Shown one piece after another: positions 6,001-9,000 of a stretch of DNA of 35,030 nucleotides. A program made the position numbers. This stretch comes from an uncultured Methanosarcinales archaeon. GTDB taxonomy: Archaea > Nanobdellota > Nanobdellia > Woesearchaeales > CAYSVS01. Position 1 is the first letter of the stretch, and the number at the start of each line of letters is the position of its first letter. Location: assembly GCA_964434475.1 (NCBI GenBank), contig CAYSVS010000009.1:1-35030 (forward strand), read 5' to 3'.

Positions 6001-9000
6001 TTGATGAGTATTGATCTATAATCATTAAAGGCATATTTTAAATACTATGTCTGTTTTTTACTTGTTATGTTATTTGATGAAAAGAAAACATTGTCGATTA
6101 TTCTTATAGTATTGCTTGTTGTAAATATGATACTTTTTGGATTGCAAAAGATTAGCGCATTATCATTCTGGGGATTGATACTTACGGTGTTTCTTATAAT
6201 GAAGTTCTATATAAAGAAGAAATAATATTAGTTTTAAAAGACTAATAAATAAACTGTTTAATAAAAATAAATAAAAACAAGATTATTTTTGTTTTCCTTT
6301 AACCATCAATGTACTGTTTTTTTGTGTTATAGATATCTCTGTAAGGTTGTTTATAACTATGTCATTGCCTGCTGGCAAATATATTACATTTAATCCTTTG
6401 ATATCTACTTTTCCTACTTTTTCGTAATCCAGAAACTGGTCCGGTACTTCTTTGCTTAGATGCGGGTCGTTGTCACTGAATAGATTCACAAAACAAGGAT
6501 AGTATTCTCCTTTTCTCTTTTTTCGTCCTAATATTATGCTTTTTGTTTTGTATTTTGCCATTGTGTGATTTTTCTCCCAATGATTATATATAAATTTAAC
6601 TTATTATTACATAGTAGATATTATTTTTTGTTAAAAAACACTTCTGAAAATTCACAAAAAATTATCGAGATATATATGTGCCATTTTATTATTTGAAATC
6701 CCAAAAATTATTTTTCTATTCTTACATCCAGAACTTCTTTAAATTTTCTTATTTTTTTTGTCAAGTCTTTTAGTCTGTCTTCATCTGTCGAATGCAGCTT
6801 GATTTGCAAAATAATATGGCCTTTGCTGCTTCTTGTGTTTATAGCTTTTATTATTATCCTTGCTGTTGTTATGGTGTTCAAAGCCTCTCTTATGAATCCA
6901 GGTGCGTCGTTTGCAACTATTATCAGTTCTTTTTCATATTTATCTTCCAGAATTTTCCATTTTAGCTTAGCAGTTTTAGATTGGTTTAAACTATGGATAT
7001 TAGGACACCCTTTTTTATGCACAGTTATTTTCTTGTCTTTTGTATAGAATCCTAATATCTTGTCACCTGGTTTTGGATAACAGCATTTCGAGATTTTTAT
7101 AGGTGCTTTTTTGCCTTCAATTATTTCTATTTGATCAGCTAATATTATTTGTCTTTCTTCATCTGCACTAAAGCTTTTTTTAGGTTTGTCAAATTGTATG
7201 TTCAATGCCTGTCTAATCTTTGATTTTGCCATGCTGCCTTTTACGAAATTTAGCCATTGTCTGTTAGGTTTAGCATTTTTTTGTGTAATAATATCCACAA
7301 CATCGCCTGATTCAAGCTTATGGTCCAAAGGTACAATGTTATTGTTTACTTTTGCTTTGCTGCATTTTTCACCTAAGTTGGTATGCACTTCATATGCAAA
7401 ATCTACAGGTGTAGATTTTTCAGGTAAAGATATAGGATCTCCTTTTGGTGTAAACACAATAATCTCATTTGCAAATAAGTCTAGGCTTAAATCTTCAATT
7501 ATGTCTTGTGCATCCTTGTTTGTTCTTCTCCATTCAAGCAGCTGCTTGATCCAGCGTATTTTTTGTTCGAATTTTTTGTCTCTTTCAGTGCCTTTATATT
7601 TCCAGTGTGCTGCTACACCTTCTTCAGCATAATCATGCATCTCTTTGGTTCTTATCTGTATTTCCAATAGTTTGTTGTAAGGCCCTTCTACTGTTGTATG
7701 CAGGGATTGGTAGCCGTTAGGCTTTGGATTCTTGATAAAATCCTTAAATCTTTTTTCAACAGGTTTCCATTTGTTATGGAGTATATCTAGTGCAGAGTAG
7801 CAGTTAGTTATATTATCTGTGATTATCCTTATTGCGATAAGGTCAAAGATATCATCAAATGTTTTCTTATCCTTCTTCATCTTATTATATATGCTATAGA
7901 AGAATTTTGCTCTTCCTGCAACATCTGCAGGAATATGGCTTTCTTTTAGTGTTTTCTTGACTTCTTCTATTATTTCCTGTGTTTTTTTTTCTCTTTCTCC
8001 TCTTTTTTCAGATATTCTTGCTTTAAGGTATTGATAAACTTTTGGCTCAAGGTATCTTAAACTTAAATCTTCTAGTTCTCCTTTTATGTAACCAACTCCT
8101 AGTTTGTGAGCTATAGGGGCATAGATATGCATGGTTTCCTCAGCGATCCTTTTTTGTTTGTCTGGTCTTAGATGCTTTAATGTACGCATGTTATGTAATC
8201 TGTCAGCTAATTTTATGAGCATTATTCTGATATCCTTAGAAGCTGCAAGTAATATCTTTCTGAAGTTTTCAGCTTTGTATTCTTCTTTTTTGAAGAATCT
8301 CATCTTGTCTATCTTTGTCAGTCCTTGAACCAAGCCAGCAACTTCTCCTCCGAATTCGGTCTCAATTTTATCTATCTTTACTAAGGTATCTTCAACAACA
8401 TCATGCAATAATGCAGTGCATATTGTAGCTGTATCTGCTTTTAATCTTATTAGTATTTCTGCAACACCTAAAGGATGCATAAAATAATCTTCTCCAGAAA
8501 TACGCTTTTGGCCTTTATGAGCATCTTTGGCAAAATTAAACGCTTTTCTGATAAGTTCAGAATCAGCTCTAGGATTATTATCCTTCACACTTTTGATGAA
8601 TTCGTTAAAGTCCATAAAAAATAGAAAAAAGCAGGTGGTTTAAAAATTTATTGATAATCTTTGGTTTAAAGATTAATTTGAATCTTTTTAAAATTCAAAG
8701 TATGGTAAGATTTAAAAATAAGGTCTTAATGATGAGATATATGATATGTTTAGGGATAGAATCAACTGCGCATACTTTTGGTATAGCTATAGTAACAGAT
8801 GATAAGAAAGTTCTAGCTAATGAACGTTCTTTGTATACTACAGAAAAAGGAGGGATGATACCTGCAAAAGTTGCTAATCATCATATTGAAGTTTGCAAAG
8901 AAATAATGCAGAAAGCTTTGGATAAAGCAGGAATAAGTTTGAAAGATGTTAATCTTATCGCTTTTTCTCAATCGCCTGGACAAGGGCATGCTTTGCGTAT

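What a model noticed while it worked through the whole genome (the two positions that open the first line are those of the whole stretch)
6708..8615. Long bifunctional Rel/RSH alarmone enzyme in an archaeon
A 635-aa RelA/SpoT homologue with hydrolase, synthetase and TGS domains and intact motifs lies on an archaeal contig. Similar ORFs of about 640-750 aa occur in 17 of 41 sampled genomes of the order. Archaea have been described as lacking long RSHs.
Evidence so far: - Pfam HD_4, RelA_SpoT and TGS. - TIGR00691 692.7 bits against cut-off 499.2. - 6yxa B. subtilis Rel E 2.4e-149, with HDVVED and EIQIRT-type motifs. - PF04607 in 24 of 41 genomes, 17 as long ORFs, including closed G018 and G030. 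- Literature: calls 111, 113, 157.
(Added by a program. Inside this text positions count along the whole contig: contig position 1 is position 1 of the stretch shown here. "Call 12" and the like, gene names such as g00115 and contig names such as C1 are that model's own, and its searches are not shown. The text may have been shortened before it was handed on; [...] marks where a part breaks off. The agent that wrote the report below was given it as the finding of a first reader that could run no searches.)

Follow-up and report, generated by a model that had tools for sequence, protein, structure and literature searches.

The report
Compact alarmone enzyme in an archaeon
A tiny DPANN-type archaeon carries an intact bacterial-style enzyme for making and breaking the starvation signal (p)ppGpp, in a shortened form shared by many relatives; this suggests some archaea use this alarm system, although the gene's presence in these archaea was already noted in print.

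Summary
Window 6708-8615 (-) encodes a 635-aa long RelA/SpoT homologue with HD, SYNTH, TGS, zinc-finger and ACT domains. It passes TIGR00691 and best matches B. subtilis Rel. It sits on a genuinely archaeal contig, with L31e, S19e and Kae1.

It is not a one-off. Full-length copies occur in 42 of 101 genomes sampled from the order and 161 of 401 from the phylum, including single-contig genomes.

In two trees all archaeal copies lie on one side of a single branch, apart from the sampled bacterial Rel proteins. This fits one old acquisition followed by vertical descent and losses.

All 12 synthetase residues I checked, the TGS histidine and the Cys-Cys-His-Cys residues are intact in 73 of 73 archaeal copies.

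The added point is a clade-wide deletion of about 80 residues.

The novelty claim is overstated. NCBI already names these proteins in Woesearchaeota/Nanoarchaeota. Li et al. 2021 reported RelA/SpoT in 41.7% of Woesearchaeota. No activity has been measured.

The parts
6708..8615 (-). rel gene: 635-aa long RSH, Rel type, predicted bifunctional (p)ppGpp synthetase/hydrolase
   Evidence: ORF. TIGR00691 scores 692.7 bits against cut-off 499.2. Best solved relative is 6yxa at 2.4e-149. AF2 model has pLDDT 86 and pTM 0.79. Best Foldseek matches are RelA, Rel and SpoT.
8094..8543 (-). HD (hydrolase) domain, residues 25-174, with H47, H71-D72, E75-D76, D138, H141-N142
   Evidence: Pfam HD_4 at 4.6e-52. 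The residues are invariant in alignment A1. They are identical to all 72 bacterial rows.
7587..7916 (-). SYNTH domain, residues 234-343: GRAK 234-237, K245, D258, R263, RFKD 289-292, K298, N300, Y302, H306, EIQIRT 318-323
   Evidence: Pfam RelA_SpoT at 1.6e-42; same place found. The 12 residues are intact in 73 of 73 archaeal rows. D258 aligns with B. subtilis D264 (alignment).
7284..7463 (-). TGS domain, residues 385-444, with H411 at the place of B. subtilis H420
   Evidence: Pfam TGS at 9e-22. The alignment offset of +9 is. H411 is present in 73 of 73 archaeal rows. The role of H420/H432 is described in PMC7797070.
7116..7283 (-). Remnant of the alpha-helical (AH) region, residues 445-500: a conserved helix (about 452-470), a variable low-confidence linker (471-483) and a helix (484-493). 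The AH core is missing.
   Evidence: 78 bacteria-only columns map between residues 486 and 490 (viewed). The distance from TGS end to the CC motif is 58-80 in archaea and 129-158 in bacteria. PF19296 scores 22.0 bits against cut-off 23.8.
6978..7115 (-). Zinc-finger / RIS domain, residues 501-546, with C511, C512, H533, C537
   Evidence: Invariant in A1 and present in 73 of 73 archaeal and 72 of 72 bacterial rows. Strands and a short helix appear in the model.
6711..6977 (-). ACT/RRM domain, residues 547-635, complete
   Evidence: Pfam ACT_4 at residues 559-632, profile positions 4-79 of 80, 32.0 bits against cut-off 27. The model shows a beta-alpha-beta-beta-alpha-beta fold. It aligns end to end with bacterial ACT.
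8639..8650 (-). A/T box (TTTAAAAATTTA on the + strand) 24-35 nt upstream of the rel ATG: candidate archaeal TATA element in the divergent rel-kae1 spacer
   Evidence: Sequence read. The assignment is inference only.
6703..6707 (-). T5 run directly after the TAA stop: candidate archaeal oligo-T terminator
   Evidence: Sequence read. Inference only.
8651..9724 (+). Kae1/TsaD gene, divergent neighbour of rel. The pairing recurs in relatives.
   Evidence: Pfam TsaD at 1.4e-75. A divergent upstream TsaD is found in 12 of 73 archaeal rel loci, from 10 families.

Best explanation
The gene encodes a working Rel-type long RSH of a DPANN archaeon (Woesearchaeota / Nanoarchaeota lineage). Its SYNTH domain would transfer pyrophosphate from ATP to GTP or GDP to make (p)ppGpp. 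Its HD domain would hydrolyse (p)ppGpp again. The C-terminal TGS, zinc-finger and ACT modules would set the balance between the two activities.

A bacterium most likely donated the gene once, early in this archaeal class. It has since been inherited vertically, with many losses. It is a compact variant: the core of the alpha-helical domain, about 80 residues, is deleted in every archaeal copy examined.

Shown here: identity, intact catalytic and sensor residues, archaeal location, distribution, a single clan in the trees, and the deletion.

Inferred: enzyme activity, the direction of transfer, and control by uncharged tRNA on the archaeal ribosome. I rate the ribosome and tRNA control at about even odds. 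The downstream targets are unknown.
For: Identity:
- Domain and family scores.
- About 50% identity to B. subtilis Rel over residues 21-487.
- Confident AF2 model whose best structural matches are ribosome-bound RelA, B. subtilis Rel and full-length SpoT.

Constraint:
- 12 of 12 synthetase residues are intact in 73 of 73 archaeal rows.
- H411 and the Cys-Cys-His-Cys set are present in 73 of 73.
- H411 occupies the place of B. subtilis H420. PMC7797070 describes that residue as recognising the tRNA CCA end.
- D258 occupies the place of D264, whose D264G change is synthesis-inactive (same paper).
- Mean pairwise identity among archaeal rows is 0.51 (HD), 0.57 (SYNTH) and 0.58 (TGS), close to the values among bacteria.

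Archaeal host:
- L31e, S19e and Kae1 lie on the same contig.
- GC content is even across the gene.
- Neighbours of rel in relatives include TFIIB, S3Ae, L10P, S8e, Rpb1/Rpb2, LonB and Cdc6.
- Single-contig genomes G016, G253, G418 and G244 carry the gene.

Descent:
- Presence follows families: f94 40/42, f59 10/10, f101 7/7, f67 8/8, against f43 0/29.
- Archaea and Bacteria separate at one branch, with support 100 in FastTree (145 rows) and in IQ-TREE LG+G4 (82 rows).
- Synteny is specific to sub-clades: Kae1 in 12 loci, ThiF in 9 loci.
- Li et al. 2021 also predicted a bacterial origin.
Against: - No enzyme assay exists. [quoted passage not shown]
- The missing AH core matters in bacteria. 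[quoted passage not shown] In B. subtilis the TGS-Helical fragment bound tRNA but TGS alone did not (PMC7797070). Activation by tRNA may therefore be weakened, altered or lost.
- Classical Firmicute targets and helpers were not found in G000 (96.95% complete): HGPRTase TIGR01203, guanylate kinase PF00625 and Ppx/GppA PF02541.
It holds no RelA/SpoT of Proteobacteria and no rows labelled as candidate-phyla (CPR) bacteria.
- The tree is unrooted. Donor and direction rest on distribution alone.
- 9 of 73 archaeal copies have lost the HD aspartate, so bifunctionality does not hold for the whole clade. The window's copy is canonical.
Confidence: 0.72

Rival explanations
1. The enzyme is active, but its C-terminal region no longer senses the ribosome or uncharged tRNA. 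With the AH core lost, the TGS, zinc-finger and ACT modules serve only for autoinhibition or for binding a small ligand or a partner protein.
For: The AH core is absent from all 48 archaeal rows measured. Bacterial work assigns tRNA contacts to it. Archaeal ribosomes differ from bacterial ones. pTM 0.79 suggests a confidently packed model, and it superposes with lower rmsd on full-length SpoT 7qpr (about 14 A) than on ribosome-bound RelA 5iqr (about 36 A).
Against: The CCA-contacting histidine and the Cys-Cys-His-Cys residues of the ribosome-binding RIS domain are kept in 73 of 73 rows. Both linker helices flanking the lost core seem to be retained. The ribosomal elements named (helix 38, S19, L16) are universal by established knowledge; I did not test this here.
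Confidence: 0.3
2. The gene is bacterial contamination or a mis-binned contig, not an archaeal gene.
For: The protein is as similar to bacterial Rel (510-596 bits) as to copies from other orders of the same archaeal class (535-588 bits).
Against: Archaeal-type ribosomal proteins L31e and S19e and Kae1 lie on the same 35-kb contig. GC content is even. Single-contig genomes carry the gene. Archaeal marker genes adjoin it in many relatives. The archaeal copies form a clade of their own, all with the same deletion.
Confidence: 0.01
3. The gene has entered these archaea many times, recently, from different bacteria, or it rides on a mobile element.
For: Presence is patchy: 161 of 401 genomes. Seven rows from the window's order group with rows from other orders rather than with their own (99*). 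An integrase adjoins the gene in 2 of 73 loci (L017, L023).
Against: Archaea and Bacteria separate at one branch with support 100 in both trees. The AH deletion is shared by all copies measured. Presence is consistent within families. Housekeeping neighbours are conserved.
Confidence: 0.05
4. The protein makes or degrades something other than (p)ppGpp, such as (pp)pApp or pyrophosphorylated tRNA. Alternatively it acts mainly as a hydrolase that clears alarmone taken up from a host.
For: No product has been measured. DPANN archaea depend on hosts for nucleotides, which is established knowledge rather than a result here.
Against: It belongs to the long RSH family, not to the toxic small synthetases. 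The residues that I recall, from the RelSeq literature and not from any call, as contacting guanosine (K298, N300, Y302, H306) are kept in all rows. Synthetase residues are intact in 73 of 73 rows, while the hydrolase aspartate is lost in 9 of 73, so selection bears hardest on synthesis.
Confidence: 0.05

Closest known systems
Bifunctional Rel of Firmicutes (B. subtilis Rel, PDB 6yxa; RelSeq, 1vj7)
   Same: Same domain order: HD, SYNTH, TGS, zinc finger, ACT. About 50% identity over residues 21-487. All hydrolase and synthetase residues checked are the same, including the RFKD motif also found in 54 of 72 bacterial rows. The TGS histidine is the same.
   Different: It lacks the AH core of about 80 residues. 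The distance from TGS to the CC motif is 58-80 residues against 129-158. Total length is 635 aa against a bacterial median of 738. The host is an archaeon.
E. coli RelA on the ribosome (5iqr, 5kpv)
   Same: Best Foldseek match. TGS, RIS/zinc-finger and ACT modules are shared.
   Different: RelA has a dead hydrolase domain and a full AH domain (residues 485-580). The RelA equivalog NF008124 scores 442.6 bits, below its cut-off of 728.
SpoT (A. baumannii full-length SpoT, 7qpr)
   Same: A long bifunctional RSH. The model superposes on it with lower rmsd than on ribosome-bound RelA.
   Different: 24-25% identity in the structural alignment. The SpoT equivalog NF008303 scores 565.6 bits, below its cut-off of 947.
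Small archaeal RSHs listed by Atkinson et al. 2011 (divRel of Methanosarcina acetivorans; Mesh1-L of Methanococcoides burtonii)
   Same: RSH superfamily members in archaea that are ascribed to transfer from bacteria. M. acetivorans matches PF04607 in the control set.
   Different: They are single-domain proteins. The window's protein is a full multi-domain long RSH. TIGR00691 matched none of the 4 archaeal control genomes (the four are named).
RelA/SpoT of DPANN archaea as counted by Li et al. 2021 (PMC8407392)
   Same: Very probably the same genes: 41.7% of Woesearchaeota there, against 42 of 101 genomes here. A bacterial origin is predicted in both.
   Different: In the passage I read it is a single sentence based on annotation. 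It makes no long/short distinction and gives no domain, residue or indel analysis. I did not see its Fig. S34 (held on figshare).

Membership tests
Long RSH (RelA/SpoT family, TIGR00691) | Whole-protein score above the curated cut-off | tested here: met
   692.7 bits against 499.2
Long RSH, bifunctional Rel type | HD hydrolase domain with the H...HD..ED...D..HN metal and catalytic residues | tested here: met
   HD_4 at 4.6e-52. The pattern R38 H47 H71 D72 E75 D76 D138 H141 N142 is identical to all 72 bacterial rows. The roles of these residues are recalled from the HD-domain and RelSeq literature.
Long RSH, bifunctional Rel type | SYNTH domain with intact catalytic residues and a basic RXKD motif | tested here: met
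   RelA_SpoT at 1.6e-42. 12 of 12 residues are intact and RFKD lies at 289-292. D258 corresponds to B. subtilis D264. The meaning of RXKD versus EXDD is recalled.
Long RSH | TGS domain with the histidine that recognises the tRNA CCA end | tested here: met
   TGS at 9e-22. H411 aligns with B. subtilis H420. Its role is described in PMC7797070.
Long RSH | Alpha-helical (AH) domain between TGS and RIS (Pfam PF19296 RelA_AH_RIS) | tested here: not met
   PF19296 scores 22.0 bits, below the cut-off of 23.8, and finds 0 of 3 further archaeal copies, while bacterial L082 and L033 score 55.2 and 59.3. 78 bacteria-only columns are missing.
Long RSH | Zinc-finger / RIS domain with Cys-Cys...His...Cys | tested here: met
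   C511, C512, H533 and C537 are invariant. That these residues bind zinc is recalled.
Long RSH | C-terminal ACT/RRM domain | tested here: met
   ACT_4 scores 32.0 bits against 27, over profile positions 4-79 of 80
Long RSH | Synthesis and hydrolysis of (p)ppGpp | not testable with these tools
   Needs an enzyme assay
Long RSH (Rel/RelA) | [quoted passage not shown] | not testable with these tools
   Needs reconstituted archaeal ribosome complexes
Gammaproteobacterial SpoT (NF008303) and RelA (NF008124) equivalogs | Score above the equivalog cut-off | tested here: not met
   565.6 against 947, and 442.6 against 728

The most novel reading that the evidence does not exclude
A large branch of DPANN archaea runs a genuine (p)ppGpp stringent response. 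A compact Rel that has shed the tRNA-contacting AH core docks on the archaeal ribosome through its TGS, RIS and ACT modules, reads uncharged tRNA, and produces an alarmone that acts on archaeal targets still to be found. The targets are not the HprT/Gmk/GppA set, which was not found in this genome. This would be the first alarmone signalling system shown in Archaea.
Probability: 0.4. Interest if true: 0.8.

Novelty: new variant of a known kind. Interest (0 to 1): 0.55.

Why it matters
Reviews of archaeal signalling still say that (p)ppGpp has not been described in archaea and that its enzymes are rare there (PMC10249747). Here about 40% of the sampled high-quality genomes of one archaeal phylum carry a constrained, full-length Rel.

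This turns an old question into an experiment: do any archaea use the bacterial starvation alarmone? The protein can be expressed, assayed and tested with archaeal ribosomes.

The clade-wide loss of the AH core is also a natural deletion experiment on a domain whose role in bacterial Rel/RelA is still being worked out.

The gene's mere presence is not new. It is already in public annotation and in one sentence of Li et al. 2021.

Tried and rejected
- Expression: no RNA holder listed. The only full holder is a DNA run that may be the source sample. I laid no reads.
- Jimmy et al. 2020 surveyed 24,072 genomes including archaea. The PNAS main text never mentions archaea. The three readable supplements hold no archaeal terms. 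Datasets S1 and S2, which hold the taxonomy table, are .xls files that cannot be read here. Whether that census lists archaeal long RSHs stays open.
- Castelle et al. 2021 on DPANN protein families (PMC8204110) has no mention of RelA, SpoT, ppGpp, stringent or alarmone.
- Paper searches found no study devoted to archaeal long RSHs (of the 47 papers found, only 30 were listed and seen).
It gave outgroups but no named archaeal records and no other archaeal phyla. I could not sample Iainarchaeota/Diapherotrites or other DPANN phyla.
- I asked whether hydrolase-dead archaeal copies carry the acidic EXDD motif of RelA. They do not: the 9 rows without the HD aspartate keep a lysine or arginine at the third position, 8 with R/K and 1 with L at the first. 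The 9 EXDD-like rows keep the HD aspartate.
- HGPRTase, guanylate kinase and Ppx/GppA were not found in G000. The guanylate kinase family also missed all 4 archaeal control genomes.
- I did not run complex prediction, the search of protein representatives or read laying. None would have changed the verdict.
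Full report
**Observation.** Window 6708-8615 on the minus strand is a single ATG-started ORF of 635 aa.
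- Pfam finds HD_4 (25-174), RelA_SpoT (234-343), TGS (385-444) and ACT_4 (559-632) above their cut-offs. RelA_AH_RIS scores 22.0 bits, below its cut-off of 23.8.
- TIGR00691 scores 692.7 bits against 499.2. The SpoT and RelA equivalogs stay below their cut-offs.
- The best solved relative is B. subtilis Rel, 6yxa, at E 2.4e-149.

**The contig is archaeal.**
- The same 35-kb contig encodes ribosomal proteins L31e and S19e, an Lhr helicase, Kae1/TsaD and MetRS.
- GC content is 0.28-0.39 throughout, with no step at the gene.
- The genome (G000) has 1.50 Mb, is 96.95% complete and 0.85% contaminated, and holds one RSH gene.
- Close homologues in public databases are named by NCBI as proteins of 'Candidatus Woesearchaeota archaeon', 'Nanoarchaeota archaeon' or 'Nanobdellota archaeon'. 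The lineage is therefore DPANN.

**Distribution.**
- With the protein as query, 42 of 101 genomes of the order (one per family, G000 included) have a full-length match at E <= 1e-100. Others have only ORFs of about 200 aa that match the hydrolase part.
- With TIGR00691, 161 of 401 genomes of the phylum, all at least 90% complete, score over the cut-off. 173 of 401 match at E <= 1e-40; 38 of those 173 are 'same class' kin from other orders.
- Presence follows families: f94 40/42, f59 10/10, f101 7/7, f67 8/8, f80 10/11, against f43 0/29 and f32 0/6.
- Single-contig genomes G016, G253, G418 and G244 carry the gene.
- The family matched 10 of 14 control genomes, all bacterial, and none of the 4 archaeal model organisms.

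**Phylogeny.** I took 73 archaeal proteins from the loci. I dropped two truncated rows, two duplicates of the same genomes, and one shortened row (561 aa). I added 72 full-length bacterial Rel proteins out of the 80 loci returned by a genome-contig scan.
- FastTree on the 145 rows puts all 72 bacterial rows on one side of a branch (support 100, length 0.30).
- IQ-TREE (LG+G4, quick search) on 82 rows, one per archaeal family, gives the same split: 48 archaeal against 34 bacterial rows, SH-aLRT 100. The very long L144 row was left out and Bacillota and Acidobacteriota were thinned.
- Families with several rows mostly stay together: f94, f123, f125, f138 and f53. Seven rows of the window's order group with the other-order rows (99*). 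I cannot explain that.
The tree is unrooted and no bacterial sister group is resolved.
- Transfer from Bacteria is inferred from distribution. Long RSHs were found in most bacterial phyla surveyed (36 of 41 phyla, PMC3153485) but only in part of one archaeal radiation.

**Anatomy.** Archaeal proteins are 613-673 aa (median 638, n=73). The bacterial ones are 668-789 aa (median 738, n=72).
- The difference is one deletion. 78 columns filled in bacteria and empty in archaea fall, all but two, between window residues 486 and 490. This equals residues about 496-581 of Priestia Rel.
- From the end of TGS to the Cys-Cys motif there are 58-80 residues in 48 archaeal rows and 129-158 in 35 bacterial rows. 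The ranges do not overlap.
- Judged from the alignment and the model, the helix after TGS (about 452-470) and a helix before the zinc finger (484-493) remain. They probably correspond to linker helices 1 and 2.

**Residues.**
- All 12 synthetase residues checked, and the set H411, C511, C512, H533, C537, are present in 73 of 73 archaeal rows.
- H411 aligns with B. subtilis H420. Its E. coli counterpart H432 stacks on the tRNA CCA end, and the H420E change abolishes tRNA-dependent locking on the ribosome (PMC7797070).
- D258 aligns with D264, the synthesis-dead D264G position in the same paper.
- The window's hydrolase pattern equals that of all 72 bacterial rows. Its RFKD motif is the commonest bacterial form.
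- Conservation among archaeal rows is close to that among bacteria in HD (0.51 against 0.59), SYNTH (0.57 against 0.65) and TGS (0.58 against 0.61). It is lower in the zinc finger (0.36 against 0.52).

**Structure.** AlphaFold2 on alignment A1 gives mean pLDDT 86 and pTM 0.79. Confidence is low only in three loops, one of them 477-481 in the shortened linker. Foldseek ranks ribosome-bound RelA (5iqr), B. subtilis Rel (6yxa) and full-length SpoT (7qpr) first.

**Context.**
- Among 73 archaeal loci (137 flanking ORFs), a divergent Kae1/TsaD gene lies upstream in 12 loci from 10 families, including the window. A ThiF-family gene lies next to rel on the opposite strand in 9 loci of other orders: upstream in 8, downstream in 1.
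- Other neighbours are archaeal housekeeping genes.
- In the window, a TTTAAAAATTTA box lies 24-35 nt upstream of the ATG and a T5 run follows the stop. These suit an archaeal promoter and terminator, but that is inference.

**Mechanism.**
- Shown: an intact, constrained Rel-type enzyme in an archaeal lineage.
- Inferred: it makes and hydrolyses (p)ppGpp.
- About even odds: its C-terminal modules still read uncharged tRNA on the ribosome. For this, the sensor residues are kept. Against it, the tRNA-contacting AH core is gone, and in B. subtilis TGS alone did not hold tRNA.
- Unknown: the targets. HGPRTase, guanylate kinase and Ppx/GppA were not found in G000. Translation GTPases are my guess from general knowledge.

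**What is known already.**
- Atkinson 2011 counts the lack of long RSHs among the features that PVC bacteria share with archaea and eukaryotes.
- Li et al. 2021 reported RelA/SpoT in four DPANN phyla, 41.7% of Woesearchaeota, as a predicted bacterial acquisition. Public annotation already names these proteins.
- I found no paper that analyses them. I could not read the taxonomy tables of Jimmy et al. 2020.
- Presence is therefore known. The single clan, the residue-level constraint and the clade-wide AH deletion are, as far as these searches go, not in print.

**Verdict.** A real, well-conserved compact Rel of DPANN archaea: a new variant of a known kind and a good experimental entry point, but not the first report of the gene.

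Noticed in passing
Loci L142, L159, L160 (family f94), L143 (f29), L144 (f55), L151-L154 (f123): 9 of 73 archaeal long RSHs have lost the aspartate of the HD motif (HG, HT or HH) along with other hydrolase residues, while all their synthetase residues are intact. In 5 of 5 such genomes tested, the only HD_4 domain is that of the long RSH itself. These lineages seem to have a synthetase without an obvious hydrolase.
   Followed up: partly
Loci L122, L129, L134, L138, L156, L157, L017, L021, L147: Nine archaeal copies carry an acidic EFDD/EFED/ELED motif where the window has RFKD. By recall, this resembles the charge reversal of monofunctional RelA. All nine nevertheless keep the aspartate of the HD motif, although L156 has changes at other hydrolase positions.
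   Followed up: partly
G203:C13:2889-4289 and G203:C49:5689-7026; also G393 (single contig), which has two matches: Two genomes show two TIGR00691 matches each. For G203 both are listed as separate long frames of 622 and 649 aa. G393's second match is not in the listed rows. They may be paralogues, one from each archaeal sub-clade, or a binning artefact.
   Followed up: no
tree: L145, L146, L147, L143, L142, L159, L160: Seven rows from the window's order group with rows of other orders of the class (support 99*), not with the 48-row group of their own order. This could reflect transfer within DPANN, old paralogy or a taxonomy mismatch.
   Followed up: no
window 10913-27487 (-): A 1927-aa protein with fn3 and Ig-like domains is followed on the same strand by six ORFs of 244-1038 aa with no Pfam match at E <= 1e-4.
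   Followed up: no
window 375-1151 (-): The L31e ORF is 258 aa, but the L31e domain covers only residues 5-71. The same-genus homologue next to rel is 174 aa. Either there is a long C-terminal extension or two genes have been read as one.
   Followed up: no
window 8651-8735 (+): The listed TTG start of the Kae1 ORF is probably too far upstream. The Pfam match begins at residue 58, and an MICLGIESTAH N-terminus starts near 8733. That would leave a divergent spacer of about 115 bp shared with rel.
   Followed up: partly
window 6283-6561 (-): A 92-aa ORF with no Pfam match lies downstream of rel on the same strand. It is not at that place in the same-genus locus L003, where L31e follows instead.
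   Followed up: partly
G005:C51, G042:C1, G037:C19, G087:C52, G046:C3, G034:C2, G031:C3: Genomes of the order without a long RSH often have open frames of about 190-215 aa that match only the hydrolase part (E 1e-15 to 1e-35). These look like small alarmone hydrolases.
   Followed up: no
P0104: One close homologue (56% identity, 654 aa) is labelled 'Thermoproteota archaeon' by NCBI, unlike the other named hits, which are Woesearchaeota or Nanoarchaeota. It may be a mislabelled bin or a copy in another phylum.
   Followed up: no
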